DNA of 64,000 nucleotides from assembly GCA_039621445.1 (NCBI GenBank), contig CP154954.1:6335425-6399424 (forward strand). The letters are read 5' to 3'. Position numbers and translations under genes: made by a program. Source of the stretch: Euglena gracilis (lineage: Eukaryota). The notes under the pieces were generated by a model. The model was not told the DNA's origin, searched no databases, and was given only the letters and a program-made list of their open reading frames with translations. Numbering within the stretch: position 1 is the stretch's first letter; the number at the start of each line of letters is the position of its first letter. This document shows, piece by piece, positions 1-60,561 of the stretch.

Positions 1-399
1 TCTCAAAGAATCAATCTCCAAACCCTAATAACACCGGGAGGGAAGAGGAGGGGACGGCAAATATAGAAAGTGCGGTGCGGCAATGAGCGCAGTGTGGCGA
101 ATATAATAGCAATGCGGCGGCGAATGCACTGAGGTGCCCCTTGCACTCCTGGCCCCCTTGCGGGGCCTTTTTCTACCTTTCTCCATTCTCCTTGGCAAAT
201 TCTTGCATTTGTACATTCTCTCATTTACACGCTCATGCGTGTGTGCGTGCACTCACACCCACACGGACGTGCAAATCCGGTTTTTGAATTTTAAAAACAG
301 CACTTTGCCTTCCCATTAGGCTCACCGTAGAGCCTTGGACAGGGCCTTATGGCTCACCTTAGAGCCTACGGCCCACCGTCAATTTTAAGTTCGGACATT

Positions 400-590
400 A
401 TGTCCATTTTCACTTTTTTCTCACGGCAATACTTCACAAACTCCCCACTGAACCTGTGAATAAAATTCCCAGCCGGTTCCCAGGTCTGCTCCCCGTCTTC
501 ATATCCGACCCACTTTGTTTAAAACTCCCACTTTCCATCCTTTCCTTTCCGATGCCTTAGAATTTTCTCCACCTCCCACTCATCAGGTAA
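400..590 (-). pseudogene. Chromodomain at the C-terminus of the integrase
   Basis: EWEVEKILRHRKGKDGKWEF*TKWVGYEDGEQTWEPAGNF matches the chromodomain pattern (VE.IL..R...KW.GY....TWEP); in-frame stop at 519-521. Confidence 0.9.
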
Positions 591-1800
591 TGCCTCTTCT
601 TCTTTTTCGGTACGTTTATAATAAAAAAGAGGCACCCCTTTCCCTTCAACTTGGGGTTCCCGATACTCCTTCAAAAAACTCCTATGAGCTTTTGTCTCCA
701 CCCCAGGTTTCATTTCGATTACATAACTTCGTTCCCCTTCTCTACCCTTCACGACCCCAGGTCCCACCCACCTAGAGTCAAGCTTCTCACCCGACCCTTC
801 GGGTCTCCTACACCAAACCATCATCCCCACCTTTAGGGGTTCCATTTCTTTCCTCCCCTTATTTATCCTTGCCACCTCCTCCTCAATGCTTTTTGTTGAG
901 TATCCTAGCCACCCTCCCATCAATGTCTTGCATCGTTCGGAAAAAATCTACCGAATCCTCACATTCTTTGGGTGGTTGGTAGGGTACCCCTGCTAATGGT
1001 CGTTCCCTTCCATGTAGAATTTCATATGGGCTGAACCCGCTTTCCCCCTTTACGTCGTGAATTCGGTCCACAGCTTGGGGTAAAGCTTCAACCCAATTAA
1101 TTTTTTCTTTCACGTACAAATTTCTCAACACCTCCATTACCTGTTGTCCGGCTCTCTCAATCCTCCCGTTTGCTTGGTGGTGGTATGCTTGGGAATATGC
1201 TTGCCTAATCCCCAAAAGTGCACACATGTTTTTCCACCAAGTTCTTGTGAAATGGCTCCCTTGGTCACTTGAGATGACCGAGGGAACCCCAAAAGGCCTC
1301 AACTGATGTTTCACCATTTCCTTAGCCAACTTGGCACCGGTTAATCCCTTGTCCTTGCATGCAACCCCCACAATCCATCCCGAATGCCTATCCACACAAA
1401 GGGCTAGGGTGTCATACTCCCCCCCATCGTGTAAAACCCTTGGCATTCGAAACAAATCGATGGCAACACTTATCATTAGTGCAGGGGGTATGGGTGTGGA
1501 CTCGATCGGTCCTTTCAAACTCTTCCCCCTCACACTCGCTTGGCATGTGAAACAATTTTTGCTGCACTTTTGGTTGAGTTGTTTTGCAGCCTTTTCATCA
1601 GCCCAAACAAAACGGATTGCATGTGTTTCCAACTTTTTCAGGGCCAACGTTCCCCAAAAACTCGTGAAGTTCCTGAATCACCAAGTGTTGAAAACTTTCA
1701 GGCACACACAACTTTTCTTCAAAAAGCAATTGGCCATTTAGCTCTTTGAAGCCCGTTGGCCAAATTGAATCGCCTTTGGTAGCTACCCATTTTTCTTTCC
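591..1800 (-). pseudogene. Retroviral-type DDE integrase with C-terminal region
   Basis: CFTCQ zinc motif, SVAIDLF, LCVDRHSG, PSVISSDQGSHF, YHHQANGRIER, SPYEILHGR, then KLDSRWVGP (GPY/F-like) in the next frame. Confidence 0.95.
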
Positions 1801-2159
1801 ATGTGGGGCATTGGGAATATGCTTCCCCCCCATACGGGCTTAATATCCTTAGGGGTCGTACTTGGCAGGGCGTCCCCCACTTCCATACGAGTGTCCCCCC
1901 TCGAACTTTCAGCCGTCTCCGGGACAGGGGTCGTCTCCCCCCCCCACTTTCTCATCCCAAAAATGAACTCGTTTCTTTTCTTTCCTGGGCCATTGTGAGT
2001 GGGTGTCCACAGGGGTGTCTTTTCCTCCTGGGTCTACCCCACCCTCGGTTCCCCTCCTTGTGCACTCGCCTTTTTCCTCCTCAGGTGTTACGTTTTTGCC
2101 ACTACAGGTTGTCACCCCCCGTATCCAGGCATTACGTAAATTGGGCTGGTTTTTGATTC

Positions 2160-2910
2160 TTATCTCCAAACACTTTTTTCCTCTTCTTTTTCCTCCCGGA
2201 TAAAATTTTCCATTTCATCCTTGTCTTCGGCTGACCCATGCTTACTTATATCCCTTAGGGCCTGTGAATCTGGGTATGCCCACCGACTAATAATGTCGGC
2301 TATGGTATTTTCTTTACCCGGGATATATCCCACCGTCAAATCATACTTGGAGAAAATTTGGTGCCATCTCGCCCTCCTCCCAACCGGACCACTGGGGGTG
2401 TCCAGGACTTCCCTTGTCCAAGACTCCAAACTTTGGTGGTCGGTTAAAACCAAAACGGGTTGCAATCCAATCCAACTCTCCCATTTTTGTAGTGCCAAAA
2501 TTATGGCATATGTCTCCAACTCCCTGGGGGTCCATTTTCTTTGCCCCTCGGTCAATTTTCGAGACATAAAAGCCACTGGCACAGTTTTTTTCTCAATCAC
2601 ATCTTGGGCTGTGGGCCCCCCTCCTTCATTTGCTCTAACGTTGCCCCCACGGCGTACCCACTGGCATCTACCCTTAGCACAAAGGGTTTATCTGGGTCTA
2701 CCCGTTGCAACATTAGGCCCGAACACAACCATTTTTTCAGCTCCTCAAAAGCTTTTAAATCCTCCCCATCAAATTCCACAGGTTTTCGACTTCCTTTCTT
2801 TCCCACCTCCCTAGGGACTTTCAATTTGTCTTGCAGCCGGGCAGCTACTTCCGCATACATGTGAACGTATGCATTGTAATAATTTGTGAATCCCAAAAAG
2901 GCTCTCAAAG
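2160..2910 (-). pseudogene. RT connection region and RNase H
   Basis: RAFLGFTNYY, FVLRVDASGYAVGATL, PVAFMSRKL, RELETYAI, VLTDHQSL, YIPGKENTIADIISR. Confidence 0.95.
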
Positions 2911-3680
2911 CCGTAATTGTTTTTGGAACCTCCCACTATTCGATCGCTCGTAGCTTACCCGGTGCTGGCCTCCTAGTCCCATTTCCTAAAATCTGTCCAC
3001 AAAATTAAACCCCCTCCACAAAAAGTTTGGCTTTGAATTCATCAGCCACCAAAAGTTCTGTTTTGAGCACTTCCAACACTCTCCTCAAATCTTTTTCATG
3101 TGCCCCCACTAGATCCTCCCCTTCCCCGACCGTTGTCCACACCAGTATGTCGTCTATGTCCCCTGTGGCGATATCCCTTACTGGTGTCAAACGGTCATCG
3201 ATCATTTGCTGAAATTGTTGGGGGGCATTTGTCAAACCCATTACGTTCACCCTCCACTGAAAAATCCCTTTGGGGGTGAAACAACACGTTATGGGTCGAC
3301 TTTCTGGGTGTGAAGGTTGTTGGTGAAAAGCTTGATTTGAATCAATGATCGAAAACATTTGGTTTGCACCATGTTTGACAAAAATGTCTTCAGTTTTGGG
3401 TAAGTGGTAGTTGCATCGCCTTGTTTGGCTGTTTGGGCCCCTGAGGTCCACCACCCCCCTCCAAGGAGAATCGTTGGATTTTTTTGGAACTGGAAAAGTC
3501 TGGGAGAGCCATTCAGAATTTTTGGCTGTGGCTGGCTCAATGTATTTTTTGTCAAGCCAGTCTTGGGTGATTTTTTCAAGTGCCTCTTTCCTCTCACCAT
3601 ACATGAAAAAAGGCTTCTGTCTGGTTGGCTTTGCCCCCTCCTTCAAAGGTATGTATGCATAACCATATTGTCCTCTTTCG
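2911..3680 (-). pseudogene. Reverse transcriptase (Ty3/Gypsy)
   Basis: FPVPKK..WRGVVDLRGPNSQT, QAFHQ, FQWRVNVMGLTNAPQQFQ; catalytic motif reads GDIDDIL where YIDD is expected. Confidence 0.95.
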
Positions 3681-4079
3681 GGGGGGGTCTGGAAATGGCG
3701 ATGACTGAAATACTGTCCCCCGGTAATCTTCCAAAACTTGTTCCCTCAACTTGACTACCCGTTCCTCCTCTTTTTTGTCCTCCCCCTCCCTTGCAATTAT
3801 CATTCGGTTGACAACTTGCACTGGGGGGTCACTTCCTTCCAAATTTGTGGCAACCTCCCCCAAGTCCTCGTCACTCAAAAATTGCAAGTCCTGGTCCAAC
3901 CCTTCCAATGGCAAACAAAGACCAAGTTTTTGCAACCCAAACGAAGACCCGTCCGCCACAGTCACATTGTCCACTGAAACATTTGTGTCATCCCTGAAAT
4001 TTTGCGGACCCCTCCGTCCTTCAACACCCCGCAAAAAAATCAGGTCGGGGCTGTCTTTCACCAATGCCTTGTGGTGTGG

Positions 4080-4420
4080 AAAAATTCCCAGTTTTGCCTC
4101 CGCCAACCATGGATAAGAAAGAATGGCATCAACTTTGATGTTTGCCACATAAAATTCAAACTCATATTCCACAAACTCAATTTCCCTTTCCTCATTCGAA
4201 TTTTGTTGAAGGATCATTTTCACCTTAGCACATCTGCTCCCCCCCGCCAAAGTTTGCCCATTGGCTGTTTCAAACCTTAACGGGTCCTTAGCAGGATACA
4301 TTAGGTGGTCCCCTATCAACCCTTGTCGAATGAGGTTTGCCTCAGCCTCCGTGTCAATCAAAATTCTGGCCGTTTTTTCCTCCCCATTTGCCAACCGTAT
4401 CTGTGTTTTTAACAGCAGTT
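4080..4420 (-). pseudogene. Retropepsin aspartic protease
   Basis: ILIDTEAEANLI (DTG-type active site, here DTE), ETANG flap and DAILSYPWL within ORF 3594..4769. Confidence 0.88.
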
Positions 4421-4539
4421 GTCTGTCCTCCCCAAGTTTCTTTGCTCCTCCCCGAGTGTTTGTCCCTCTCAACATTCTTTTTTTCAGCCGCACCAATTTT
4501 TTCTTTCCTGGGGCTGCCCCCCCCTGGGAGGGTTGCCTT

Positions 4540-4900
4540 CTATCAATCAACAAGGCCCACACCCCCCAACGGGTACCCCTCAAAATCCACCCATCAGCCT
4601 CAAACAACTTTGTCCCCTTGGGAAAATAAATCTTTTTGACAGCAATAGCCACCAGATTTCTCACCCACCTCCTATTCCAGTCTGGGCAAATACAAATTGC
4701 CCGACAATTGAATTTTTGCAATTTTTCAGCCACCTCAGGCCACAAAGTCCAGGGGGGGTTCATCCACAACGTTTCCTCCGCCCCCCATTCCTTTTTCGTG
4801 GCATCATCATCCCCCCCATAAAACTTTTCACACCTGGCATTTTGGCTGGTTGCAAAACAATCCCGTTACGCCTTAACCCGAAATTCATTCTCAATTTCCT
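4540..4900 (-). pseudogene. Dam-like (phage/DIRS-type) N6-adenine DNA methyltransferase domain within the Gypsy polyprotein
   Basis: In-frame translation *RDCFATSQNARCEKFYGGDDDATKKEWGAEETLWMNPPWTLWPEVAEKLQKFNCRAICICPDWNRRW: D.FA...NA.C..F motif, catalytic NPPW and P.W motif; continuous with the protease ORF. Confidence 0.85.
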
Positions 4901-4959
4901 CCATACAAACTTTCCTAACAGCATAATCCTCCCTACGATATCCGCTTTTTCGTTCCAAC

Positions 4960-5540
4960 ACGGTTAACAAATACTCCACCAGTTGTTTGGGCACCCTCCA
5001 TTTTTTCTGAGTACTAACTGTCATTCCATATCCTCCCAAATTTTCTTGGTGACTCCTCCCCCCAGGAATCAAATTCGGGCAGGTCTGGCCATCACAAAGT
5101 TTGTTTTGTAGCTTGCTCAGATTTTCGCTCCCCCAGATTCGGGTGGGCTTTTGATATCCCCGTTCTGAAAATTGACAATAATCAACATCGACAAAGGTAA
5201 GATTTTGAACACAGGGTCTTTTTCGAAGCAACCCATGACGGGGATTTTCAATCCACCACAACTTTGGGTCGAAATATTCGACAATTTCCAAAGTTTTTTT
5301 GACCAAATTTCTGACTCCCAACGTTTTGGCCAAGCTATATTCTGTACAGGGCACCCCCGCAGCGATGATCTGAAAATATCCGGGGGGTTACCTCCAATAT
5401 CTCCACTCCAAAATATTTGCACAGTGGATTGGGTTAAATCTGGGGTTTATGTCCACTGACACAACCTTAAACCCCTGCTCTCTCAGGCAATCCCCAACCG
5501 AGCCTTTACCGCAAAAAAATGTCTAAAGCTCTTTTCCTTA
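4960..5540 (-). pseudogene. C5-cytosine DNA methyltransferase domain within the Gypsy polyprotein
   Basis: RALDIF/CGKGS (motif I FxGxG, +1 frameshift in a T7 run at ~5513-5519), VVSVDI (II), IIAAGVPCTEYS (IV, catalytic PC), WWIENP (VI), DYCQF...GYQKPTRIW (VIII-like), RVPKQLV (X-like); one TAA at ~5388. Confidence 0.9.
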
Positions 5541-5799
5541 CGGAAGGCTGTGCACGACCTCTTATGAGGTCTGATTCTTTACAGATTTGGGCCGAGTCAC
5601 AGATTTGCACGTCACGCAGGCACGCACCCGACACACTGGACACACCTTGTGCAGAGATCTCCTGGGATGGCAGATTTTTCATCGTGGTTTCACTCGCACG
5701 ACATTTTTCATGCCACCTGGGATTTGTGTATGTCTTTGTGTGGGGCTGGGTATGCGAGCCCGGGGCGGCTCCCGCCCCCAACGGTCCACCCCGGCTATC

Positions 5800-8700
5800 C
5801 TAGCAACGGTTTCCTTTCCCCCTTCCTTTGCCTTTGCCTTTTCCACCATCTTGGCCCTTTCCCCTAGACCAGTCATTTCCATTGTTTCCTTTCCCCCAAG
5901 AATTGTTTCCTTTGCCCTTTCCTTTGCCTTTGCCTTTGCCACCACCAAACTGTGAATCAAAATTCTGTTGATTTGAGTGCCACCACTGATTTCCCTGAAA
6001 ATTGGCATTGGCGTTGGAATTCCTCCCAGAATCGTTTCTCCATCCACCCCCATTGCCAAATTGAGATTGCTGGGGGGGTGAATATGACTGTGATCGAACC
6101 ACTGGCACTGGATTTTGCACTTGGGGGTTCGCGTTTGCATCGGTCGCCGGAGCTGCCACCTGTGAATCTGATTTTTCAACGGACGGTTTTACCACCGTTT
6201 CGCCCCCCTTTGCTGACCGTGCTGGGGAGGGTGTCCTGGACCCCTTGGCCCGATCTGCCTTTTCAGTCCTGGCCCTCCGGTTTCCGGACCCATTTGGCTC
6301 TCCGGAACTGTGTAACATGTCTTGATTATCCCTGGATGACAATTTTCGCTCAACAAAACGGAAAATTTCTTCAGCTCCCATTTTTGACTGTTCCTACACA
6401 ATTTTGATTCTTTTATCCGTGCCTGTGATTGGTTTCACACTGACCTCTTTCAGGTTGTCGCAAATCGTAGTATAGGGCAAAAAGACTTCGAAGTCCAGCG
6501 GTGAAACTTTCGAAACCTTGCAGGGCTTTTCCACAGTGACACGTTCCACAGCACAAATAATGTTTTCCTCCGTTGCTGGCACTCCAGGGTACATTTTGAC
6601 TTTCGGTCCACACGTTGATTTCCTTTCCTCCTCATCGGCGACCCAATGCAAAATGAAATTTGGAAGTTTTCCTTTGACCAGTCTTTCTGCCTCATCGTCA
6701 GTGGCGCTTTTCACCTGTCTCCAGGCCATTTTGAAATTTATGACAAAGTCTCGCCATCCCGTACAGTAATTTTCCCTTGGTTCACAAGGTGGACATCATT
6801 CCATTTTTTTCTGGCACAGTCGGACTGAGTTCCAGCATATTTCCCGTCAATCCTGTCAAATTCCTCGTCGAAAGATGTTTTTCGGTTCAATTCCATTCGG
6901 GATTGCAATTCCTTTTTATTTGTGTCGTCCAGCGTCATTGCAAAAAGCCGAAGTTTGAGTGAATCAGACACATGTCCATTTTGCAAAATAACCAACGTCC
7001 TGACATATTGATCCCAATCTCGCACAAAGGACGACCAGTCTTTTGGCTGTCCAGAAAAATTTGGAGCTACCAGGTTTTTCATCAATTGATGCGTTGCCAC
7101 TGCATTTGATGAAACCAGCCCTGCGCCTGACATGTGTCGCATGTGACCCTGCTTCAGCGTATTCATAGTCTTCAATTTCAACCGGATTTTTCTCGATCAC
7201 AGGTAAATCATTGCAACCAAAAAGATCAAACTCCTCTATTTCTGGGTTTCCAGCTGATTTTTCTCTCGTTTCCTTTGTCAGATCCACTGTCGCAGATTTG
7301 GCAGATTCAGCTTGCTGATTTTTCATCACCAAAATCTCAGCCTGAAATAAATCCAGCTTTTGTTTCAATTTTTTGTGCTCCTGCTGTTCTTTTCGAAGTT
7401 CAACGCACTGCTGTTGCAGTAAAACTCCAACCTGCTGTTTCATCGAGTTTTCCATTTCGGCCCGAACTTTCTCAAACTGCCCCTCCCTTTCACTCAGCCT
7501 CAACCTTTCGTGCAACATTTCACTGATAATCACCTCCAAATTCTTTCTCGTTTGCAGCCCCAACTCCCTTTGCACCTCCAACCGAATTGTTTCCTCACTC
7601 TTGTTAATCAGGGCAGAGACTTTCTCAATGGGAAAATCTTTCCGACCCAGAAAATTCTCCAACCTCCCCAAACGATCATTCAGAGCTTTGCTCTCTCGCT
7701 CCAGGGACTGTGAAAATTCCTTCAATTTCTCAGCCTGTGCCTGAAAATTGGCACACTCAGTCTCCCCCAAACTTTTGCATTGCTGAAAAATGGTCCCAAA
7801 GCGTCCCTCCAGACCAGAGCTTAGCTCACCGACTGCAGATTTGACCTGATTAACAGCAATTTCCTGCTGTTTTTCCTTCTCCCCCACTTGTTGCACCGCC
7901 ACATGCATCTCCCCCACAGATTTTTCCAAAAACGACAGCTTCTGAGAAAAATCCCTCTCATTTTTTGTCAACCCCTCAACCTTGGTCTCAAAAAACGTGT
8001 TTACTCCACCCTCCACTTTCTTCACTTTTTCAGCAAACTGCCGTTCCATTTCCACACTCAACAAATGTCTTTGGCATTGGGCCAGATTTTGCACCATTTC
8101 ACCATTTTGCTGAAACTGCAAAAGCAAGTCGTTTATGGTTGCACTCAGTTCAGCCTGAATTTCACGTTTCACCATGGCAATGTGATCCGCCATTTGCTGA
8201 TCATGCATGCCCAATGCCTCATTGACCAGATTCAATGTCTGCCCCTGTGACATGGCCAATGCCTGATTTAACCTGTTTTCTGCCTCCCCCACCAGATTTT
8301 CAGCCGTTTTCTCAGGATTTTTTCCTTCCTGCACCAAAAGTCTGCAATGTAAACATTCAATTTTGCAACTGATTTCTTCACCCCAATTGTTCCAATCATC
8401 ATCGGATTGGCCATAGCCTGATTCCATTTCCACATCATGCTGATTTTCAGGGTTTTCGGACCCAGTTTCTGCAGAAAAACTGGTGTTTGGCTGTAAATTC
8501 TGTGGCTGGGTCTGTGGAAAATCTGGCTGAATTGGCTGGAAAATCTGGGCTGGGCCTGTGTTTGAAGACACTGTTAACGCTGGCTGAAAAACTTGCCCAT
8601 GCATCTGGGCTGGTCCCATGATTGCTGGAACAGACGGCTCAGCCGAAAACTGCTGGGCTGGCTGAAAAACCTGTGAAGTCATCTGGGATGGCCCCATGAT

Positions 8701-10060
8701 TGCTGGGACAGATGACTCCGCCGAAAACTGCTGGGCTGGCTGAAAAACCTGTGAAGTTATCTGGGCTGGCCCCATGATTGCTGGGACAGATGACTCAGTC
8801 GAAAACTGCTGGGCTGGCTGAAAAACCTGTGAAGTCATCTGGGCTGGCCCCATGATTGCTGGGACAGATGACTCAGTCGAAAACTGCTGGGCTGGCTGAA
8901 AAACCTGTGAAGTCATCTGGGCTGGGACAGATATCTCAGCCAAAAACGGCTGGGCTGGCTGACAAACTTGCAGCTGGGCTGCAGCTGGCTGTGCTGACTG
9001 CGATTCTGAACTCTGTGTTAACAGCAATCGTTCTGGCTGGGCTGTTAAACACAAAACGTTTTGTTCTGGCCCTGGGCTGCTGTCTCGTGACGACACAGAA
9101 ATTTGCTGAAAACCTGAAAAATTTACTGGCCACATGCCAGCAGCTTTCATTCTTCGCATAACCATTTCCTGAATTATTTCGTTTTCAGCCTGTTTTTCTT
9201 CCTCAATTTCGCTTTCGTAAGCTGGGGGGTCTGATTCGTCGTCACTGCCATGCAGTGGAACCAGCTGTAAATTTTCTGGCTCTGCCAGCGTGATGGGCCT
9301 TATGCATGTAATTAACCCCCTCTCCGAATCAGAATCAGATTCTGATTCCTGTGTCGTTTCTGAAAATCTGAAGCCGATAAAGTTTCTGCAGCCTGAGAAT
9401 TGTTTTCTGCCACAGATTCCATCATGATTTGCAATGATGCCACAGGTTCTGAAAACTGGGCTGCAGAAAATTCAGTTTCCTTTTCGTTCTGAAAATAGAT
9501 TTCTGCCACAGATCTCAAAAAATTTGGCCGGGAAACGAGCAGATGTCTGCGGATTCTTCTGAAAATTCACAGACCACAGGGTTGATGAAACTGTCCTCGT
9601 GCACCATTCTGCTGGCACAGCCACCAGAACAAATCTCTGTGACCGTGTCGACCGTCTCTGGAAATTTTTCACTGACTGGGTCAGTGAAAGAACCTTTGCT
9701 TGCGATGTCAGCCGAATCTGAAAACTTTGCACTGATTCTGCTGGCTGAGCCAGTGGAACAAACCTCTGCCACGATGTTCACCGAATCTGAAAAATCCTCA
9801 ATGATTCTGCTGGCAGAGCCAGCAGAACAAACCTCTGCGACCATGTTCGCCGGCCCCACCCCCTGTGCGCCGCCGGTCGCCCCCGCGACCGGCGAGTCCC
9901 GGTGGGCCGAGCGCCCGGGGGGTCCTCGCCGTCGTGGAAAACCACCAACAGCCGGGGGGTGGGTGTTTCCGGGGTGGGGCCTGCGCTTTCTCCGAGGGTT
10001 GGTGGGCTCAAGCCAACCCCCGTTTGTTTCACTCAGGTATTTTCCCAACCCCTGCCGGTG
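5800..10060 (-). pseudogene. Large Gag-like ORF1, fragmented: repeat-rich N-terminus, coiled coil, capsid-like region, GK-rich basic tail
   Basis: The 733-aa ORF 6964..9165 is Q/E-rich and coiled-coil-like; APNFSGQPKDWSSFVRDWDQY is Gag capsid-like; GKGKGKGKG tail at ~5810-5950; lies directly upstream of the pol domains. Confidence 0.75.
8570..8960 (-). repeat. 78-bp coding tandem repeat (26 aa, ~4.5 copies) in Gag-like ORF
   Basis: AQMTSQVFQPAQQFSTESSVPAIMGP repeated; ccatgattgctgg recurs at 78-bp spacing. Confidence 0.9.
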
Positions 10061-12166: not shown

Positions 12167-13244
12167 GGCTGCATGGGGGAGTACATCAAACACAACTCAA
12201 CTTTCCCCACCACGTGGGCGAGGCCCCCAGGGCAAGCAACCTAGAAAAGCCTTTCCGATCAACCTCCCATGGCAATCTGCCAGAGTAGAACCTTGAACTT
12301 CAATTCTCCAAATCCCTTCCACACTTCCCAACACATGCAATCCAAGACCTTGCCAGATACAACTACTACAAAGTGATGCACTGTTTGCCGTACCAATGTG
12401 AAAAAGCCAAGTAGAATTTTCAATGGGCGAAATATCTTTTCTAGCCATGCCTAATTTCAGATTGCAATCACAGATTCTGGAATACTTTGATGTCTGCTCT
12501 CACCCTCCTTCTCAGAAAAATTGTCCACAATTTACCCAGCATTCGGAGCGACATAGGACAGACCTTTATCCCACGTTGAACATCTTGATGAGCCACTTGG
12601 AACACGACAAGAAGAAGTTGAAGACGAAGTAAAACGGATGAAAGTAACCACCTTCTGCCGCAGAACGCCAGCACATGGCAGCACCAATTGCCAAACGAAA
12701 CGGCGAGAGATTTTTCGTAAACAGTAGGTGAACTCACAACCCAGCGATTATGCAAACCTACTGTAATGTCAACAACAGCAAATGACCACCAAAACCACAA
12801 ATAACCACCATCTGGTTCTCCATTACGTGCCTCAAGGCTCATCTCGATGCTCCACCTGGAAGTTCTCGAAGGCCGTGCCTCACGGCTCAGCACCAGGACC
12901 TGTAATTACAATTTCAAAGATGTCATCAATGACAATGTACAATGATGAACGGTTTGCCTTGAGAGAGTAAGAGACACCCCGGGGTCCGCACTTTGCTCTA
13001 GTGAGGCCGGATTGTTCACTGGGGGAACAGGGCATTTCCAAGAGCACCCTGGGCCCCAAGTCGTTGATAATGGCCTGTAAAAGCATCCACCCCCCTCCAC
13101 TGGCCAATTTCACAAACCTCTTGGGCAGAAATCCCCAATTTTTTGAGTAAACCAACTCCTGCCGCTCTGGTGGAGTGAGTGTGTGCGGCAGACGGGAGAT
13201 CCTACGGGGGTAGGTCGCCGGCGCGTAGTACCAAGCCGAGTATC

Positions 13245-13317
13245 GCTCGAGTAGCTTATTCGGTAAGGCACTGGGCTCACACGCGGGAGGTCGTGGGTTC
13301 GAGACCCAGGTCCCGCC
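13245..13317 (+). promoter_or_regulatory. tRNA-Val(CAC)-derived segment with Pol III A and B boxes in the 5' LTR
   Basis: TAGCTTATTCGGTAAGGC (D arm/A box), CTCACAC loop, AGGTC variable loop, GGTTCGAGACC (B box); acceptor and anticodon stems are mismatched. Confidence 0.8.
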
Positions 13318-13931
13318 GTGTGAGTCCTGATCGATCCCGTACGGGCAGAGGGCATACCGCGGGGATCGATCGGCACGTGAGGCTGCGCACGTGGACGAAT
13401 GTTGATCGGTCGGATTACCACGGACGTGGCACCTCGCTAGCGGACGAGCCACTGCAAGTAGTATGAGCTGCCCCGTGGCCGTCCAACAGCGGGTGGCTAA
13501 ACCTACATACATGGTAGCAGGGGAACTCGTCTAATGCAACACGAACCGGGACATCAGAGCCTGACCCCACGGCGCCCGGAAGGCGGAGGCGGACGCGCCG
13601 AGTCTAGGGCGACTGAAACTCCTACACCGTTCCAAAGCCTCAAGCCGATGCTAAGGAGGACGCTCCAAGGCGGCAGAGCCCGTGGAAGTCGACAACACGT
13701 AAACTTCCGGCAACAGTAAACCCGAGCTGCAGCGGTCGGCAGCCTGGTGACGCAGTACTCGTGAGAGGCACTCAGCCGACTAGGGCCGTGTGAGGCATAA
13801 CCCGAGATGCAGGGGCCACGGCCATAGTGACGCAGTGAGCTAGTGTAGTAAGGCTCTTGCGAGGGGAGTGTGCGGCAGACGGAAGATCCTACGGGGGTAG
13901 GTCGCCGGCGCGTAGTACCAAGCCGAGTATC

Positions 13932-14005
13932 GCTCGAGTAGCTTATTCGGTAAAGGCACTGGGATCACACGCGGGAGGTCGTGGGTTCGAGATCCAGGTC
14001 CCGCC
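13932..14005 (+). promoter_or_regulatory. tRNA-derived segment in the 3' LTR
   Basis: Second copy TAGCTTATTCGGTAAAGGC...ATCACAC...GGTTCGAGATCC. Confidence 0.75.
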
Positions 14006-15429
14006 GTGTGAGTCCTGATCGATCCCGTACGAGCAGAGGGCATACCGCGGGGATCAATCGGCGCGTGAGGCTGGGCACGTGGACGAACGTTGATCGGTAG
14101 GATTACCACGGGCGTGACCCCTCGCTAGCGGACGACCCACGGCAAGTAGTATGAGCTGCCCCGTGGCCGTCCAACAGCGGTTTGCTAAACCTACATACAG
14201 TGGGCCCCCCACACCTGGGGGGTTACCCCATGTTTGGACAAAAATTATTTTGTGATAGAAGCAATGGTGTCTGCACTTTTGGCTCTGGAGGAGGGTTTCA
14301 ATGAAATCAGGAGGGGCCCCCAGATCTCACGAATAAACGTGTGGCCACCACATAACACATCATTAAAATGAAAGGGGCTTATTTGTGGGCACTGGGTATG
14401 GACACAACCTTGTGGATTTTTTGGCCTTTGTGCTTAATTTTGATGAACGGTGCCCTACTCAACACGCTTGTGGTTCGTTTGACCTGTGCCAGGTATGAAG
14501 ATCTGTAGAAACAGAGTATTTGTGAGCAAAAAATAAGTTGTGTTCGCAATGTACAAATATCATTGGGCATAGGCGCCTTTACCAGCCCCAGGAGGATTGG
14601 GAGCGGAGCCCAAAATGCCCCATACTTCTCCAGATTTTTGTTCCAAAGCATCTTGTAAGGGGTCAACAGCGTGTAGAATCTCAGCCCACCAAACCCATCA
14701 AAAGCATAGCGCTGTATGTATTACGAGCTTGTTGTGTACCAGGCAGCCGTAAGGCCATGATACTGTGTATGTAGGTATAAGCCTGCGGTCAGATATAGTT
14801 CTGAGCCCCATACACAGTACTATGCTAGGTGGTATTCCTAAAGATGGCCAACGGCCTGGATTAGGAATACCTAGCTCCATAGAGCAAAAACTTGTTCTGG
14901 TTCTCCTCTCCACAGGTGGTATTATATTCTATTTTTTTTTATTCTTGACTTCACTTGATTTCAAGTTTGATTTGTTTTCAAAAATCCGGAAAGTACAGCC
15001 AAGTCACTTGGCATTCTTTGTTGCAGCCCATAGGGATCCTTCGCCTGCTTTGTGCTCTGCCTCTTTATTAAGGAAAAGGGATTTTCATTTTTTTATAATT
15101 TTTTCTCCGTTACTCCAAATTTTACCTTTTTGTGCACCCAAGGGCTAAAACAAGGAAAGGTTGGACGTACACTTGGTAGCAGTTTAGGTTTTCGATCCTT
15201 TTGACCACAAACGGTCGTGTGGCGCACCGCCTATAGGCGACCACAGGCACCACAAGCCGTTTTTGGCCAAAGCCGTACACACGGACACGTCCTCTGACAG
15301 TTCGCAGTATACGCTGCTTCAAACCTCAGAGTTCGGGTCTCTGCTTATTTTTTATACAATCCCCTCTTCTTACACTTGTTTCTGCAATTTTCGTTTCAAT
15401 CTACACTTGGTTTTTGTGTTTTTCCTGCA

Positions 15430-22559: not shown

Positions 22560-23237
22560 TTTGTAAGATTGAGCTTAAACAGGCGCAAAGTCAATGCACC
22601 GGAAATTTTTCCGTTGTTCGGAGAAAGAGAGATGCTCTCAATGAAATGATTGAAAAGCTCATAGAGCAGAAGTGGATCATCCCTTACAAAAGTGAATGGA
22701 CCTCCCAAGCTTTTGTGGTTCCTAAGCCCCCAGACCCATCAGGTCAGAAAAAGTGGAGGTTGGTACTGGATTATCGGTACTTAAACTCACAAACTAAGGA
22801 TGACCCATTCCCACTACCTCTCATAGAGGACCTCATCACAAAACAAGCGGATAACTGCTTGTCGTCAATTTTCGACCTGGAGGATGGTTTCCACCAAATG
22901 CATCTGGATCTCGATTCGCAAGCCTATACGGCTTTTGTACCATCCAGAGGTGTTTACCAATGGACGGTTTTACCAATGGGTGTTAAGAATGGACCAGCAA
23001 TGTTTCAGCGCATGATCCAATGGGTCTGACGGGCTTTACCGTTTGCGCTGGTATACATTGATGATGTTTTGGGTGGTACCCTCCCCTCCATCAGCGAATA
23101 CACACGAGAATATTCTCGATATTCATTATCGTGATGTTCGCGCGGTATTAGCCGCATTTCTCAAGCATAGACTTTTTGTTAAAGGTGTTTAAATGCACTT
23201 GTTTCGCCAAACGATAAAGTTTTGTGGTCACATTCTT
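22560..23237 (+). pseudogene. Reverse transcriptase of element 2 (truncated)
   Basis: AFVVPKP..KWRLVLDYRYLNSQT, DLEDGFHQM, YQWTVLPMGVKNGPAMFQR, VYIDDV at ~23051, IKFCGHIL. Confidence 0.95.
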
Positions 23238-26200
23238 AATATTGGTGCTTCAATCTTTCTTCTTGTCTTTCTTCTTTGTCTTTCTTCTGCTTCAGCTGCC
23301 GGGCGAGCCTCCCTTTGGCCTGAGGACCCGGGTAGGAACTCCATGAAACCCCGACCTCGGTTCAAAGTTTTTGAGGATGCTTCGGCTTCGGCTGTTTTCT
23401 GAGGCAGCCGCTGGGATTCGAAATCAAAATATTCAAATATTTCCTTTTTGCTCTTGAGCCTTTTCAATTAAACCTTGAAATACAATTTTTTTTTATCAAA
23501 ATCTGGTTCTTGCATGCACAAACAATTGATTTTTTTTGTAGTTTTGTACCAGTGCATGGTGTGGGCAAAAAACCCTGTGTGTGAGATTGTGTTTGAAATT
23601 GGTGGGTTCGAGTGGGGACTTTCTTAGGTTAATTAGGGAAAATGGAAAAAACCTACTGTGGAAAATTGGTCGGCCGGTCTTGAAAACTTCCAAGAATCGG
23701 CCCTGCAAGGTCAAAAATTGAGTTCAGGCCTTCAAGCCGAACCATAATAATCTTTTCCCTAGGTTAAATTCGACTGAAAACCAAAAAATGGAATTTCAGT
23801 GATTTTCAGCCCCACTAAGGCAAATTTTGGCCAATTTTTTGGTTAGGACCCCGTTACAGGGGGTGAATGCTCTGCTCACAGGCTCTTTGATCCTCCACTT
23901 TGTCGTTGGTGTTGTCAATTGACATTCCGTAGTGGCCCCTTCCCCCTTGCTTTGGTTTGCCCCTGCCATGGGCATTGAAGAACTTGTCATCCACTGCCCC
24001 TCTTGGGGCTTCCTCCCAGGCCTGCCACAGTATATTGAATTCCCATTTTGCGGGAACAGCCTTTTAACTTCTGGGGTTTTCCCCCTTTTGATAATTGATG
24101 GCCCCAATGGCCTTGAAATTGTTGGTCTTGACCAGGTTGATGAGAATAATGCTAGCCCCAGTGGCCTTGACAAAAATCCTGGCCCCACTGGCACTCTTGA
24201 TGTTGAGTCCACCCGCCTTTTGAAATTTTGACAAACCCCATGGACTTGTCTTTGTTCTGGGACGCCATGCCCAATGAAGATCTTGGGGGGCCTCTGGGGG
24301 CCAGTCCTTTACCCCTGAAGGGGTTTGAGGAAACTGTTGGACTTGAGCATGATGAGGGGTCCGGGGGCCTTGATGAGAATAATTCTCTTGAAACTTTGAA
24401 AGTCACCATTGACTTTTCTTTGTTCTGTGACGCCATGCCCATTGAAAATCTTGTGGGGCCTCTGGGGGCCACTCCTTTGCCCCTGAAAGGGGTTGTGATG
24501 AAGAAATGGTTGGGGGGTGTTCCGGACCTGTCCTGCCCCTGCCACTGGGCATCTGCTTGTGGAGTCGGCCTCCATGGGTTTGATATTGTTGGCCACCCTG
24601 GCCTTTGTTCCATGTGGTCATTGCTTTTGTGACCTCCGTGGCCCAGCTTGAACGATGTATTTGTGTGACTGGGATATAGGCCTCCATGGCCTTGGCTGTA
24701 GTGGCCTGACAGTTGTCTTTCTTTTTGTGTCCTTCAGGTTTTTCTGACCACTGTCTGCCACAGTCCGTGGCTGTCGCTGGGTGGGTGATCAGAAATTTTT
24801 TCTGGGAGGGGAGGGACAGCCACGATTCGCCACGATTGCACCACACTTGTCAGGTCGTCCAGCTGCAGCGGCAGCCAGTTCTTGTTGACCAGCGATGCTC
24901 TTCTTTGTCTTTGAAATTCCGGGGGCCTTTGTCATTGAAATCTTTAATTTGTCGACAAAATTTGATTTTATATTCTGCACGAGGGTCGCTTTCCGGAAAA
25001 TTTAGTTGACCTATCCTTTGATATCCAATTGTCAGGGTTCTTGTATTGAAGATCCTTTCTTCTGGGTCGAAGGGGAAATTAAGAATCAGCGAGCTCCGAC
25101 GAAAAAAGACACTAAGCGGGGACTCCTAACCCAACGCACAACGAACGATCCAAACAACACCGCCGGCGAACAAGGCATGGCCTCACAAGGGCAAAGTGCG
25201 GAGCCCGAGGTGGCCCGAGGTGGTTTTCGGCGCTACCCCTCGCTTTCCCGAAAAAAGAGTACCTGCGACTGCGTTCGCACGGAAAAATCTTCGACAAAGC
25301 CGGGCTTTTCGGGGCTGACCTTGAATTTCCTTTGGCGGGGAGCCCACCCTGGACGGACGCGATGGCGCCAAAAAGAGGACGGAGGCCAGCCGGAAAAGCC
25401 CAAGAAGGCGGGTGGTTTTTTAAAATAAAAAAGGGCCCTCAGGCTTTCCGTGACAAGGGTGGGCGGACCACCATTGCTCCACACTTTGGCTCAATGGGAC
25501 CTGTCTTTCCCTCGCCGGCTATTGTTCTTTGTTTTTCTTGCCTTGCGTCTTCTCCTTACTGCTCTTCGCGCCGGCAGTTGGCTGACGTAGCCCCTGCTAC
25601 AAAGGGAAGCTATCACAAGCTATCGCACAGCAAAGCAAGCAAGATCAACAAGTACCAACAAGATCCATAATTGGTGAAGATTGCAATCAATCCAATACAA
25701 GATGGACGTGGAGAATAATCTCGTTGCCCAGCTCACCGAGGAAGGACCGCTCCTCGAACAATCGTGGACCGAGTTCATTTTCAACTTGGTGCAACTAAGG
25801 ACCAACTAAGGACCAACTACACGACCTGGAGAAGAATGTCGTCATCGCCATCTTGCACGCTGGGTTGAAGTTTACTGGAACAGGTTGGTCGACAGGAAAA
25901 GCATCAAAGCGGCTTTTCCAGATCAGCGGAGTGGCCTTACTGCAGGCCGAATTTGCCCCCTACAGAGCCTCTTTGCTCCTGGCCATCGCACTCCTGCATT
26001 AGATCGAGCTGCCGACGTTGGAAGCGGCACCGGAGGTGGCGGAGGCCGCCTTCGCCATTGCGGCGGCCGTGGAAGCTGCCGACTGGGAGGAGTCACCTGA
26101 GGAGAAGACCCAGGCGAAGGACGAAGAGCCAGAGGAAACCAAGCTCACGTGGGACGAGGTGAAGGTCCAAGCGCCTCGAGAACTTCTGGAGCTGTGGAGC

Positions 26201-59400: not shown

Positions 59401-60210
59401 GCCCCTACAAAAAACGCTGTGACACGCACCAGACACGACGCCCAGCCAACTGCTTGGGCACAGACACGACTCCGCTGCATCCACAATCCCCCCCGCGGTT
59501 GCTGCAAAACCGCATAATCTCGTCGGGACACAGTTCTGTGAAGTGCATTCCGAGCAAGTGGTGCAGGGGCGTTCCGCGGTGTGCACGCTCTACCCCATAT
59601 CTCCGCTAACGGCGGACGCCCTGCAACAAAGGGATAGGTGGATACCGGGCAGCATCCCAGACACGAGACGCCCAGCCACATGCTTTTGGGTCAAACACTG
59701 CGTCGCCGCAAACCTTAACCCACATCCAAGGCGTCGCTGCCAATACGCACATCAGCCGGTCACACACCGCATTCTGTGGGGTTTCCGAGAAGTGGAGGGT
59801 TTCCGCGGGTGTGCACGCTGCTAAGCCATGCCCATCGGTCCCCTGCAAAGACTGGATATGGCACCCAGGACACGAACGCCCAGCCCACTGCTTTTTGCTT
59901 TTGGGGGGTCCAAACGGCTCGCCGCAACCACATCCGCCGGGACACCGCATTCTGACTTCCTGTGGGGTTTCCGAGAAGTGGAGGGTTCCGCGGTGTGCAC
60001 GCTGCTATCTCGGCCCCTGCAACGAATGGATGGGCACCAGACACGACGCCCAGCCATTGCTTTTGGGTCCAAACGGCGCGCCGCAACCACGCCGGGACAC
60101 CGCATTCCTGACTTCCTGTGGGGTTTCCGAGAAGTGGAGGGTTCCGCGGTCTGCACGCTGCTATCTCGGCCCCTGCAACGACTGGATGGGCACCAGACAC
60201 CACGCCCAGC
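47455..60210. repeat. 160-bp satellite array 1 (~65 near-identical copies to ~57835, then degenerate)
   Basis: Unit cctgacttcctgtggggtttccgagaaatggagggttcc...gggacaccgcatt at 160-bp period. Confidence 0.99.
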
Positions 60211-60561
60211 CACACTTGAGGGTTCATATAAACCGCAAAATATGGTAGTTATGGTAGGTAGGGGGTAACAATAGTTAGGTTATGTATAAAATAGGGTATG
60301 ATGGGGCGGGGCCCTCAAAAAATTTTGTCTAATCACCTCAACACCAGTCAACCCACCCTAATGGCTCCAGAACCCCCCAATCGGGGGTGAATATGCAAAA
60401 ACACGAGGGGAAAATGTCCATTTTGGGCCACTTTTGGCAAAAAAAGTCGACCTAGGGCAAAAGAATTTGCTGATGGCGTTTTCCTGTGTCCAAAAAGAGT
60501 TATTTCAAGGAGTAGGGTTAGGGTTACGATTCTTATCCAAACAGCAGAACATTTCCCGCTC

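What the first reader, a model, noticed from the sequence alone, without database searches (positions are those of the whole stretch)
4540..5540. Ty3/Gypsy chromodomain retrotransposon with tandem 5mC and 6mA DNA methyltransferases in its polyprotein
Seen: between the GK-rich Gag tail and the protease lies a C5-MTase (FCGKG, VPC, ENP, DYCQF..GYQKPTR). It is followed in the same frame by a Dam-like amino-MTase (DCFA...NARC, WMNPPW, CPDW) that runs without a break into the protease. The element ends in a chromodomain. Established: C5-MTase-carrying retrotransposons are known from dinoflagellates (Symbiodinium) and charophyte algae, and Dam-like MT domains are a regular feature of DIRS elements. 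I am not aware of an LTR/Gypsy family carrying both, or of such elements in euglenids. Inference: the enzymes would be packaged in the particle and could mark new cDNA with two modifications (self-marking, protection or mimicry of host chromatin), paired with a chromatin-reading integrase.
Basis: partly seen in the sequence, partly recalled or inferred. Interest (0 to 1): 0.93.

Follow-up and report, generated by a model that had tools for sequence, protein, structure and literature searches.

The report
Dead copy of Euglena dual-methylase retrotransposon
This is a decayed copy of a very abundant Euglena-type Ty3/Gypsy retrotransposon whose polyprotein carries a cytosine and an adenine DNA methyltransferase plus a chromodomain; the design is real and striking, but a 2026 preprint already described it as "EpiLTR".

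Summary
On the minus strand (about 366-7196), a GK-rich Gag tail ends at a TAG. It is followed by a compact C5-DNA-methyltransferase (4920-5519), a DIRS/phage-type Dam-like methyltransferase (4536-4919), protease, RT, RNase H, integrase and a chromodomain.

This copy is dead. It has in-frame stops, frameshifts, an 18-nt deletion in the DNMT, and DTE in place of DTG in the protease. Other copies in the same organism lack at least four of these lesions.

The architecture is not a one-off. Of 12 long relatives, 8 carry both methyltransferases, and several are intact ORFs of 1763-1911 aa at 44-49% identity. Catalytic residues are kept across 150 cluster representatives.

The novelty claim fails. 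bioRxiv 10.64898/2026.05.21.726589 (May 2026) describes DAM+DNMT+chromodomain LTR elements ("EpiLTRs") in Euglena gracilis.

New here:
- The DNMT belongs to a compact phage-type C5-methylase subfamily.
- It marks a large environmental radiation of at least 1482 clusters.
- Module order is shuffled among relatives, and DNMT-only chromoviruses exist.

Methylation of the element's own cDNA remains inference.

The parts
6964..9471 (-). Intact 835-aa ORF, coiled-coil and Q-rich, with 78-nt coding repeats at 8579-8925. It lies directly upstream of the gag pieces on the same strand. Whether it belongs to the element is open.
   Evidence: ORF list. No Pfam hit. 94% identity over 69% of its length to EukProt EG_transcript_4936, the only hit. 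Repeats.
5800..7196 (-). Gag-like region in three frame-shifted pieces (6738-7196, 6394-6795, 5800-6393). It has a Gly/Lys-rich tail and ends at TAG 5800-5802.
   Evidence: ORF list and sequence. No Pfam family. No zinc knuckle seen on reading. No significant match to the pol ORFs of relatives.
5521..5799 (-). 93-codon linker in the same frame as the Gag tail, leading into the DNMT. Its frame is broken by one extra T in the T-run near 5513.
   Evidence: Other copies lack one base at 5513: 15 contigs in X1, 7 in X13, and the single covering contig in each of X18 and X20 (table 4).
4920..5519 (-). Compact C5 DNA methyltransferase domain of about 200 aa. Motif I FCGKGS starts at 5513; the motif IV Cys is at 5346-5348; the motif VI Glu of ENP is at 5247-5249; motif VIII DYCQF..QKPTR is at 5139-5183; motif X is RVPKQLVEYLL. 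Lesions: TAA at 5388-5390, an 18-nt deletion near 5303, and TAA at 4866-4868 just after the domain.
   Evidence: Window piece scores PF00145 11.9-14.5 bits (below cut-off) and phrog_757 E 8.3e-5. Relatives pass PF00145. A model of the P0004 homologue matches DNMT3A/3B, M.HhaI and DNMT1 at Foldseek E of about 1e-7, prob 1.0. Lesions compared with other copies.
4536..4919 (-). Dam-like (PF05869, DIRS/phage type) N6-adenine methyltransferase domain: EDYAVR helix, RDCFA, and the catalytic-loop motif NPPW at 4749-4760, followed by ICICPDW.
   Evidence: Pfam Dam 30.6-34.4 bits against cut-off 28.1. NCBIfam TIGR01712 phage_N6A_met E 3.9e-9, below its own cut-off. phrog_111 E 2.2e-7. The model of this piece has low confidence (pLDDT 58.7); its best structural matches reach Z<=6.2 and most listed matches are SAM-dependent methyltransferases.
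4060..4420 (-). Aspartic protease. This copy has DTE in place of the active-site DTG; the Glu codon is at 4347-4349.
   Evidence: Alignment. In every covering contig of 4 of 4 runs the other copies read C at 4348 on the + strand, which gives Gly (table 3). The homologue P0001 gives a weak gag-asp_proteas hit.
3005..3745 (-). Reverse transcriptase, with DIDD where relatives have YIDD.
   Evidence: Pfam RVT_1 E 1.8e-11. Translation compared with P0001.
2160..2935 (-). RNase H-like domain, split by a frameshift.
   Evidence: Pfam RT_RNaseH E 1.4e-17 and RT_RNaseH_2 E 2.1e-9. tblastn segments.
883..1951 (-). Integrase (zinc-binding region and catalytic core), with frameshifts.
   Evidence: Pfam rve E 4.2e-10. 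tblastn of P0001 and P0006. Integrase_H2C2 is found in the relatives.
366..947 (-). Integrase C-terminal SH3-like region and chromodomain (about 456-578), with an in-frame stop at 519-521. The pol stop is at 366-368.
   Evidence: Pfam Chromo 40.3 bits, E 3e-10, read with X at the stop. Frames.

Best explanation
Window 366 to at least 7196, minus strand, is a mutationally dead copy of a high-copy Ty3/Gypsy chromovirus of the kind recently named EpiLTR in Euglena gracilis. In intact family members, pol starts after the Gag stop. It encodes, in one frame, a compact C5-cytosine DNA methyltransferase, a Dam-like N6-adenine methyltransferase, protease, RT, RNase H, integrase and a chromodomain.

Shown: the domain identities; their co-linearity in one ORF in independent, divergent relatives; retention of the catalytic residues; and conservation of both methylase domains at about the level of the protease.

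Inferred mechanism (about 40% for the specific form): the two enzymes are made as part of Gag-Pol, travel with the replication and integration complex, and methylate the element's own new DNA or the DNA around the insertion. In a host reported to have default CG 5mC and promoter-linked 6mA, a new copy would then acquire host-like 5mC and transcription-permissive 6mA. The chromodomain steers integration by reading histone marks.
For: Anatomy.

Family-wide architecture:
- The search returned 12 long relatives. Precomputed Pfam shows both PF00145 and PF05869 in 5, and motif reading adds P0002, P0009 and P0010, giving 8 of 12.
- The other 4 (P0001, P0007, P0008, P0012) are ORFs that begin inside or after the methylase region.
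- Of the 12, 5 were re-scanned with Pfam: P0004, P0006 and P0011 pass both models, P0002 passes Dam but scores 19.1 bits (below 22) for PF00145, and P0001 has Dam only.

Constraint:
- Among type-A relatives (P0002-P0006) the DNMT is 58-77% identical and the DAM 54-76%. The protease is 51-75% and RT 79-89%.
- The N-terminal linker is 8-50% and the DAM-PR linker 24-55%.

Catalytic residues among the 150 best cluster representatives: motif IV Cys 111 of 115 covering sequences, motif VI Glu 146 of 147, motif I Gly 74 of 75.

Fold: the DNMT+DAM model (pLDDT 70.8) matches DNMT3A/3B, M.HhaI and DNMT1 at E of about 1e-7.

Abundance and private lesions:
- Contigs laid: 6797 (X1) and 2598 (X13) from DNA runs of organism A, 128 from a run guessed to be RNA (X18) and 64 from a leaf-litter metatranscriptome (X20).
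- The TAA at 4866-4868 reads as a Glu codon in 44 (X1), 22 (X13), 1 (X18) and 1 (X20) contigs.
- The protease DTE reads DTG in all covering contigs.
- Contigs in the RNA-type libraries bridge DNMT to DAM (4492-5030 and 4693-5107) and PR to DAM (3732-4688).

Literature: the preprint reports Euglena EpiLTRs, conserved NPP pockets, and more 6mA-methylated DAM-LTR insertions than other LTRs in E. gracilis. PMC5890265 (abstract) reports that retrotransposon DNMTs of another clade methylate CG de novo.
Against: - This copy cannot make any of the proteins. It has stops at 5388-5390, 4866-4868 and 519-521, frameshifts, an 18-nt deletion in the DNMT, DTE in the protease and DIDD in RT.
- PF00145 is below threshold in this copy (11.9-14.5 bits against 22).
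- No LTR pair, or any repeat of 1-518, was found in the window. Element ends and type of terminal repeats are therefore unknown.
- The preprint found no 6mA gain from retrotransposon DAMs in dam-deficient E. coli, says eukaryotic DAMs lack the N-terminal catalytic and recognition parts of bacterial Dam, and reports low or undetectable LTR expression in E. gracilis.
- The DAM-only model is of low confidence (pLDDT 58.7, best Z 6.2).
- No dN/dS could be computed, because no DNA of relatives was available.
- No activity data exist for this DNMT clade.
- The host name rests on the EukProt label prefix 'EG_transcript' and on my recollection of what it stands for. The sequencing runs are coded.
Confidence: 0.85

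Rival explanations
1. The two methylase domains are conserved but do not methylate double-stranded DNA. They may be non-catalytic (structural, or SAM- or nucleic-acid-binding parts of the replication complex), or they may act on the RNA genome or on RNA:DNA hybrids.
For: The preprint reports no 6mA gain in dam-deficient E. coli for DIRS and LTR DAMs. It says these DAMs align only with the TR-2 to CD-2 part of bacterial Dam, and it raises a hybrid substrate itself. The DNMT has almost no target-recognition domain: in its place is a short segment with a conserved Cys/Cys/Cys/His set (C125 147 of 149, C152 139 of 143, C157 135 of 140, H170 128 of 134).
Against: Residues needed only for catalysis are kept across the radiation: motif IV Pro-Cys, motif VI Glu and NPPW. 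Equally compact phage enzymes annotated as C5-cytosine DNA methylases share the same layout. The preprint reports more 6mA-methylated DAM-LTR insertions in E. gracilis.
Confidence: 0.25
2. The enzymes are active, but the payoff is different. One option is self-limitation, with 5mC silencing the element's own copies to keep host damage low. Another is camouflage within a genome where CG methylation is the default. Promotion of expression is not the point.
For: [quoted passage not shown] PMC5890265 suggests self-methylation of retrotranscribed DNA (abstract).
Against: Nothing here separates this from the main reading. The DAM association with 6mA-permissive chromatin points the other way for that domain.
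Confidence: 0.15
3. The architecture is a chimera: a DIRS-like or other methylase-bearing element nested in a Gypsy element, or an assembly artefact. The preprint raises this caveat for some Euglena DAM-LTRs.
For: The preprint mentions possible nested insertions or assembly artefacts for Euglena DAM-LTR/DIRS mixtures. No LTRs could be defined in this window.
Against: DNMT-DAM-PR-RT lies in one uninterrupted frame in independent metagenome ORFs at 44-49% identity (P0002-P0006), with a conserved DNMT-DAM junction (76-100% identical in the 17-residue linker). Contigs from four runs bridge the junctions. No tyrosine recombinase was found in the element.
Confidence: 0.03

Closest known systems
Euglena gracilis EpiLTR (DAM-LTR subset; bioRxiv 10.64898/2026.05.21.726589)
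   Same: [quoted passage not shown] The window element fits this description, and its best matches are EukProt records labelled EG_transcript.
   Different: No difference in kind; this is one decayed copy. The text I could read does not give the domain order. Figures and supplements could not be seen, so whether DNMT-DAM-PR order, the compact DNMT layout or the environmental relatives are already shown there is unknown.
Cymbomonas tetramitiformis EpiLTR (same preprint)
   Same: A chromovirus with DAM, DNMT and a chromodomain. The preprint places its DNMT in one clade with the Euglena one.
   Different: There the DNMT is appended to the 3' end of pol. Here both methylases sit at the 5' end of pol, before the protease.
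KnitGypsy-Dnmt3 of Klebsormidium nitens (PMC5890265)
   Same: An LTR Gypsy element with a C5-DNMT inside the Pol polyprotein, under purifying selection.
   Different: That one is a Dnmt3-type DNMT with no adenine methylase. The DNMT here carries ENP, PC(T)EYS and YCQF..KPTR motifs and aligns end to end with compact phage methylases.
SymbioDIRS-Dnmt3 and SymbioLINE-Dnmt of Symbiodinium (PMC5890265)
   Same: Retrotransposons that carry a C5-DNMT.
   Different: They have DIRS (tyrosine recombinase) or LINE backbones, other DNMT clades, and no DAM+DNMT pair.
DIRS retrotransposons with a Dam-like methyltransferase
   Same: The same type of DAM domain (PF05869-like, with DCFA and NPPW/F motifs). The preprint derives LTR-borne DAMs from DIRS.
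   Different: DIRS elements use a tyrosine recombinase and lack an rve integrase and a chromodomain. This element has the DDE integrase and a chromodomain.
Compact C5-cytosine methylases of phages of about 210-220 aa (e.g. Bacillus phage Bcp1 gp133; phrog_757, phrog_363)
   Same: Same size and layout from motif I to motif X. Shared CT.YS (motif IV), ENP (motif VI), YCQ[FY]..KPT (motif VIII), a C-x4-C pair and R[IV]P (motif X). Identity is 27-28% over 78-83% of P0013, with best E 6e-12. A profile of 53 retroelement DNMT domains scores them at 79-101 bits.
   Different: These are free-standing phage genes, not part of a polyprotein. The direction and age of any transfer are unknown.

Membership tests
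Ty3/Gypsy chromovirus | pol domain order PR-RT-RNase H-IN with a DDE (rve) integrase | tested here: met
   RVT_1, RT_RNaseH and rve hits in that order on the minus strand. Co-linear with P0001 and P0006.
Ty3/Gypsy chromovirus | Chromodomain at the integrase C-terminus | tested here: met
   Pfam Chromo 40.3 bits against cut-off 25.1, with an in-frame stop read as X.
Ty3/Gypsy chromovirus | Flanking long terminal repeats | tested here: inconclusive
   No repeat pair involving 1-518 or the region upstream of gag. Only 365 bases lie between the pol stop and the window start, so the 3' repeat may be cut off.
C5 DNA methyltransferase (PF00145) | Profile match above the curated threshold | tested here: inconclusive
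   The window copy scores 11.9-14.5 bits against 22 and is not met on its own. Relatives at 48-60% identity score 24.4-35.2 bits and pass. Among the 150 representatives, 74 match at E<=1e-3.
C5 DNA methyltransferase (PF00145) | Catalytic motifs: I (FxGxG), IV (Pro-Cys), VI (Glu-Asn-x), VIII (basic residues), X | tested here: met
   The window copy has FCGKGS, VPC, ENP, QKPTR and RVPKQL. Family conservation: Cys 111 of 115, Glu 146 of 147.
C5 DNA methyltransferase (PF00145) | C5-MTase fold | tested here: met
   The model is of the P0004 homologue, not the window copy. pLDDT 70.8. Foldseek top hits are DNMT3A/3B, M.HhaI and DNMT1 at E 2.6e-7 to 3.9e-6, prob 1.0.
C5 DNA methyltransferase (PF00145) | Methyl transfer to cytosine C5 in DNA | not testable with these tools
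   No assay of this clade was found in the papers read.
Dam-like N6-adenine MTase (PF05869; DIRS/phage type) | Profile match above threshold and an (N/D)PP(W/Y/F) catalytic loop | tested here: met
   30.6-34.4 bits against 28.1 in the window copy. NPPW at 4749-4760. Relatives reach up to 45.3 bits.
Dam-like N6-adenine MTase (PF05869; DIRS/phage type) | Class I SAM-methyltransferase fold | tested here: inconclusive
   The DAM-only model has pLDDT 58.7. VIA-align best Z is 6.2, with most of the 50 listed rows SAM-dependent methyltransferases, among them Mtq2, HEMK2, ErmC' and KsgA.
Dam-like N6-adenine MTase (PF05869; DIRS/phage type) | 6mA deposition | not testable with these tools
   The preprint reports a negative result in dam-deficient E. 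coli.
EpiLTR (preprint definition) | LTR retrotransposon with DAM, DNMT and a chromodomain in one element | tested here: met
   for the window. for intact relatives.
EpiLTR (preprint definition) | DNMT sister to the DNMT4 clade (the preprint's phylogeny) | not tested
   No DNMT4 sequences were available. By sequence, compact phage methylases score 79-101 bits against the retroelement DNMT profile. The best solved eukaryotic DNMT (DNMT1) scores 15.8 bits, E 0.06, against the A1 profile.
Dnmt3-type retrotransposon DNMT (KnitGypsy/SymbioDIRS) | DNMT groups with Dnmt3 | tested here: inconclusive
   Foldseek ranks DNMT3A/3B first, but M.HhaI and DNMT1 lie within about one order of magnitude. No DNMT3 chain appears in the profile search of solved structures at E<=1. 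The preprint states the acquisition is distinct from the DNMT3 cases.

The most novel reading that the evidence does not exclude
Both methylase modules of these elements are phage-type. The DNMT is not a derivative of a canonical eukaryotic DNMT. It is a member of the compact phage C5-methylase subfamily of about 210 aa, which has ENP, CT.YS, YCQF..KPT and a Cys/His cluster in place of a target-recognition domain. This DNMT marks a large, mostly unsampled radiation of chromoviruses in environmental eukaryotes. Within that radiation the DNMT and DAM modules have been shuffled to at least three positions around the protease, and DNMT-only forms exist. A DAM-based screen would miss those forms.
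Probability: 0.55. Interest if true: 0.55.

Novelty: already known. Interest (0 to 1): 0.35.

Why it matters
A mobile element that brings its own writers for two DNA marks plus a histone-mark reader could set its own epigenetic state instead of only evading the host's. That bears on how transposons persist in genomes such as Euglena's, where CG methylation is reported as the default and 6mA marks a subset of promoters.

The May 2026 preprint already makes that point for Euglena and Cymbomonas, so this window adds one dead copy and not the discovery.

The DNMT module looks phage-derived, as the DAM does. The family is large in environmental data, with at least 1482 clusters at 50% identity. Module order is plastic. 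These points would change the account of origin, and they widen the set of natural variants available for biochemical tests.

Tried and rejected
- **Whole-genome search.** No genome is held for this window. Copy number, intact copies and LTRs could therefore not be studied directly.
- **LTR search in the window.** The repeat finder and self-blastn found no partner for 1-518.
- **Earlier scan notes.** By place and by sequence, nothing was on record.
- **Rfam.** No match at gathering score in the whole window.
- **Profile search of solved structures.** The DNMT+DAM alignment gave only DNMT1 at E 0.06-0.58, too weak to classify.
- **DAM-only structure of the window piece.** Low confidence (pLDDT 58.7). 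The VIA-align wide search gave Z<=6.2, within the range the tool says is common for unrelated folds. I use it only as consistent with a methyltransferase fold.
- **Host range of relatives.** Of 10 looked-up clusters, 6 carry no name and 3 are called only 'hypothetical protein' (JGI). P0046 is the one with an organism label, a partial hypothetical protein of Genlisea aurea, and I do not take that plant to be the true host. The 106 DNMT relatives of 139-443 aa all come from ENA, JGI, Logan or NCBI records without organism names.
- **Gag and the 835-aa ORF.** No significant similarity to the pol ORFs of relatives; E 0.006-0.009 only.
- **TAA at 5388-5390.** No row among the 40 differences shown (83 not shown). 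I cannot say whether that stop is private to this copy.
- **dN/dS.** Not possible, because relatives were available only as proteins.
- **One-off capture in this copy.** Rejected.
Full report
**What is in the window**

The feature lies on the minus strand. Reading downstream from high to low coordinates, the pieces are:
- an intact 835-aa ORF (6964-9471);
- three frame-shifted gag-like pieces (6738-7196, 6394-6795, 5800-6393), the last with a Gly/Lys-rich tail ending at TAG 5800-5802;
- a 93-codon linker in the same frame;
- the methylase region.

Read with X at TAA, 3594-5519 gives FFCGKGS...VVSVDI...GVPCTEYS...WWIENP...DYCQFSERGYQKPTRIW...RVPKQLVEYLL. It continues with ...EDYAVRKV...RVKA-X-RDCFATSQNARC...LWMNPPW...ICICPDW...WGVWALLI and runs straight into the protease (ILIDTEAEA).

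Downstream follow RT (RVT_1 E 1.8e-11), RNase H (E 1.4e-17) and integrase (rve E 4.2e-10). Last comes a chromodomain (Pfam Chromo 40.3 bits, cut-off 25.1) with an internal stop at 519-521; the pol stop is at 366-368.

**Are the two domains what they seem?**

The Dam-like domain passes Pfam's curated threshold in this copy (PF05869, 30.6-34.4 bits against 28.1). It also matches the NCBIfam phage N6-adenine methylase model (E 3.9e-9, below that model's own cut-off) and phrog_111.

The C5-methylase does not pass in this broken copy (PF00145, 11.9-14.5 bits against 22). Its identity rests on relatives. A phmmer search of 1.84 billion cluster representatives with the 173-aa piece gave 1482 hits at E<=1e-3, 574 at <=1e-10 and 79 at <=1e-30. 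Of the best 150, 74 match PF00145 at E<=1e-3; many of the rest are fragments lacking the N-terminal half.

An AlphaFold model of the homologous DNMT+DAM stretch of P0004 was built from 8 aligned sequences (mean pLDDT 70.8). It matches DNMT3A/3B, M.HhaI and DNMT1 at Foldseek E 2.6e-7 to 3.9e-6, probability 1.0.

A model of the window's DAM piece alone was poor (pLDDT 58.7). Its best structural matches reach only Z 6.2, although most of the 50 listed rows are SAM-dependent methyltransferases. I count that as consistent, not as proof.

**Not a one-off**

A search for long relatives of the DAM+protease ORF returned 12 proteins.
- The best, 90% identical, is a EukProt record labelled EG_transcript_113. 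I recall this prefix as the Euglena gracilis transcriptome, but no call confirms that.
- Five others carry both PF00145 and PF05869 in the precomputed annotation (P0003-P0006, P0011).
- Reading the sequences adds P0002, P0009 and P0010, so 8 of 12 have both methylases.
- The remaining four are ORFs that begin inside or after the methylase region.
- P0004 (1763 aa) and P0006 (1911 aa) are uninterrupted DNMT-DAM-PR-RT-RNase H-IN-chromodomain ORFs at 44-49% identity to the query ORF.

Across the five type-A relatives P0002-P0006, the DNMT is 58-77% identical and the DAM 54-76%. That is about the level of the protease (51-75%). RT is 79-89%, the N-terminal linker 8-50% and the DAM-PR linker 24-55%.

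Among the 150 representatives, the motif IV cysteine is kept in 111 of 115 covering sequences, the motif VI glutamate in 146 of 147 and the motif I glycine in 74 of 75. This is the pattern expected of enzymes under selection. No dN/dS could be computed.

**State of this copy**

Contigs of four public runs were laid on 3594-5800: two DNA runs of coded 'organism A', one run guessed to be RNA, and one leaf-litter metatranscriptome. The counts were 6797, 2598, 128 and 64 contigs, so the family is highly repeated. Compared with this copy, the other copies differ as follows:
- They read a Glu codon where this copy has TAA at 4866-4868 (44, 22, 1 and 1 contigs; essentially all the depth).
- They read Gly where this copy has the protease DTE (place 4348; all covering contigs in 4 of 4 runs).
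- They lack one T at 5513 in 15, 7, 1 and 1 contigs. That is a minority of the depth in the two DNA runs and all of it in the two RNA-type runs.
- They carry 18 more bases near 5303. One X18 contig shows this directly, and loose ends with the same letters appear in X1, X13 and X20.

The TAA at 5388-5390 could not be judged, because no row for it is among those shown. RT has DIDD where P0001 has YIDD, and tblastn shows further frameshifts. So this copy is a pseudogene.

Contigs in the RNA-type libraries bridge the DNMT-DAM and DAM-PR junctions. That argues against a chimera. It does not prove transcription.

**Prior description**

PMC5890265 (outline, sections 6 and 9 read) describes DNMTs in Symbiodinium LINE and DIRS elements and in a Klebsormidium Gypsy element. 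It notes Dam-like methylases in DIRS.

A full-text search for Euglena, retrotransposon, methyltransferase and Gypsy found bioRxiv 10.64898/2026.05.21.726589 of 22 May 2026. Its section 'EpiLTRs: dual methylation retrotransposons' reports the following:
- LTR elements of Euglena gracilis and Cymbomonas tetramitiformis encode DAM, DNMT and a chromodomain.
- Their DNMTs are placed sister to DNMT4.
- NPP pockets are conserved.
- Retrotransposon DAMs gave no 6mA gain in dam-deficient E. coli.
- More DAM-LTR insertions than other LTRs are 6mA-methylated in E. gracilis.
- LTR expression in that species is low.

A search for 'EpiLTR' finds only this paper. Its figures and supplements were not available to me, so I cannot say how much of the detail below is already shown there.

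(a) Domain order. Here and in P0002-P0006 and P0010 the order is DNMT-DAM-PR-RT. P0011, and by motifs P0009, have PR-DAM-DNMT-RT. P0046 has DAM-PR-DNMT. P0133 (2513 aa, with chromodomain) and P0095 have a DNMT before the protease with no Dam hit; P0035 has a DNMT before its RT, with no Dam or protease hit.

(b) The DNMT is compact, about 210 aa. It has ENP where the canonical C5-methylase motif (recalled) is ENV, and PC(T)EYS where it is PCQxFS. In place of a target-recognition domain it has a conserved Cys/Cys/Cys/His set. That this set binds zinc is my inference.

(c) Its nearest named relatives are compact phage C5-methylases.
- ESM Atlas neighbours at 0.95-0.97 are cytosine-methylase clusters of 209-219 aa, mostly phage, one archaeal.
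- tblastn of P0013 against 50,697 phage records hits 85 records, with best E 6e-12 and 27-28% identity over 78-83% of the query.
- The alignment shows shared CT.YS, ENP, YCQ[FY]..KPT, C-x4-C and R[IV]P.
- phrog_757 matches at E 1.6e-15, against 1.2e-8 for Pfam and 3.4e-5 for TIGR00675.
- A profile of 53 retroelement DNMT domains scores the two compact phage proteins at 101 and 79 bits. It gives no reported hit to the two canonical-size C5-methylases (340 and 327 aa) of the same phage.
- By contrast, the best solved eukaryotic DNMT scores 15.8 bits.
- DNMT4 itself could not be tested.

**Mechanism**

Shown: two methylase domains with intact catalytic motifs are conserved in frame at the start of pol in a large family with a chromodomain integrase.

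Inferred: they are made with Gag-Pol and act on the element's own new DNA or on its insertion neighbourhood. This would give host-like 5mC and permissive 6mA, while the chromodomain guides integration.

The negative E. coli assay, the truncated DAM and the near absence of a recognition domain in the DNMT keep open two alternatives: that the substrates are RNA:DNA hybrids, or that one or both domains are not DNA methylases in vivo.

**Verdict**

The architecture is real and family-wide. This copy is dead. The kind is already described in a preprint. The residual interest lies in the phage-type affinity of the DNMT and in the breadth and modular shuffling of the environmental radiation.

Noticed in passing
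window 6964-9471 (-): Intact 835-aa coiled-coil, Q-rich ORF with 78-nt repeats, directly upstream of the decayed gag. It is 94% identical to EukProt EG_transcript_4936 and has no Pfam family. It could be an extra element ORF or a host or other repeat gene.
   Followed up: partly
window 47455-58649 and 61735-63175 (also 59906-60212): A 160-bp satellite of about 62% GC: 70 copies at 95% match and 9 copies at 99%. It accounts for the GC-rich last quarter of the window.
   Followed up: partly
window 39038-41319: Tandem array with a 217-bp unit, 10.5 copies, 95% match.
   Followed up: no
window 13181-14199: Two copies of a unit of about 688 bp (94-99% identical).
   Followed up: no
window 22583-23246 (+): A second, different Gypsy-like RT fragment, 34-41% identical to the RTs of P0001, P0006, P0011 and P0133.
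   Followed up: no
P0001 (EukProt EG_transcript_113), residues about 1450-1500: The transcript-derived protein has a tandem duplication of about 23 residues at the start of the chromodomain (EWEVEKILRHRKGKDGKWEFLTKW occurs twice). The window copy has a single unit.
   Followed up: no
P0046: A DAM-PR-DNMT relative is deposited as a partial hypothetical protein of the carnivorous plant Genlisea aurea. It may come from a protist in the sample rather than the plant; that is inference only.
   Followed up: no
run X20 on window 3732-5107: A leaf-litter metatranscriptome holds contigs of 959 and 418 nt that are about 96-97% identical to this element. A close relative of the host, or the host itself, therefore occurs there, and the element is present in an RNA library.
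   Followed up: partly
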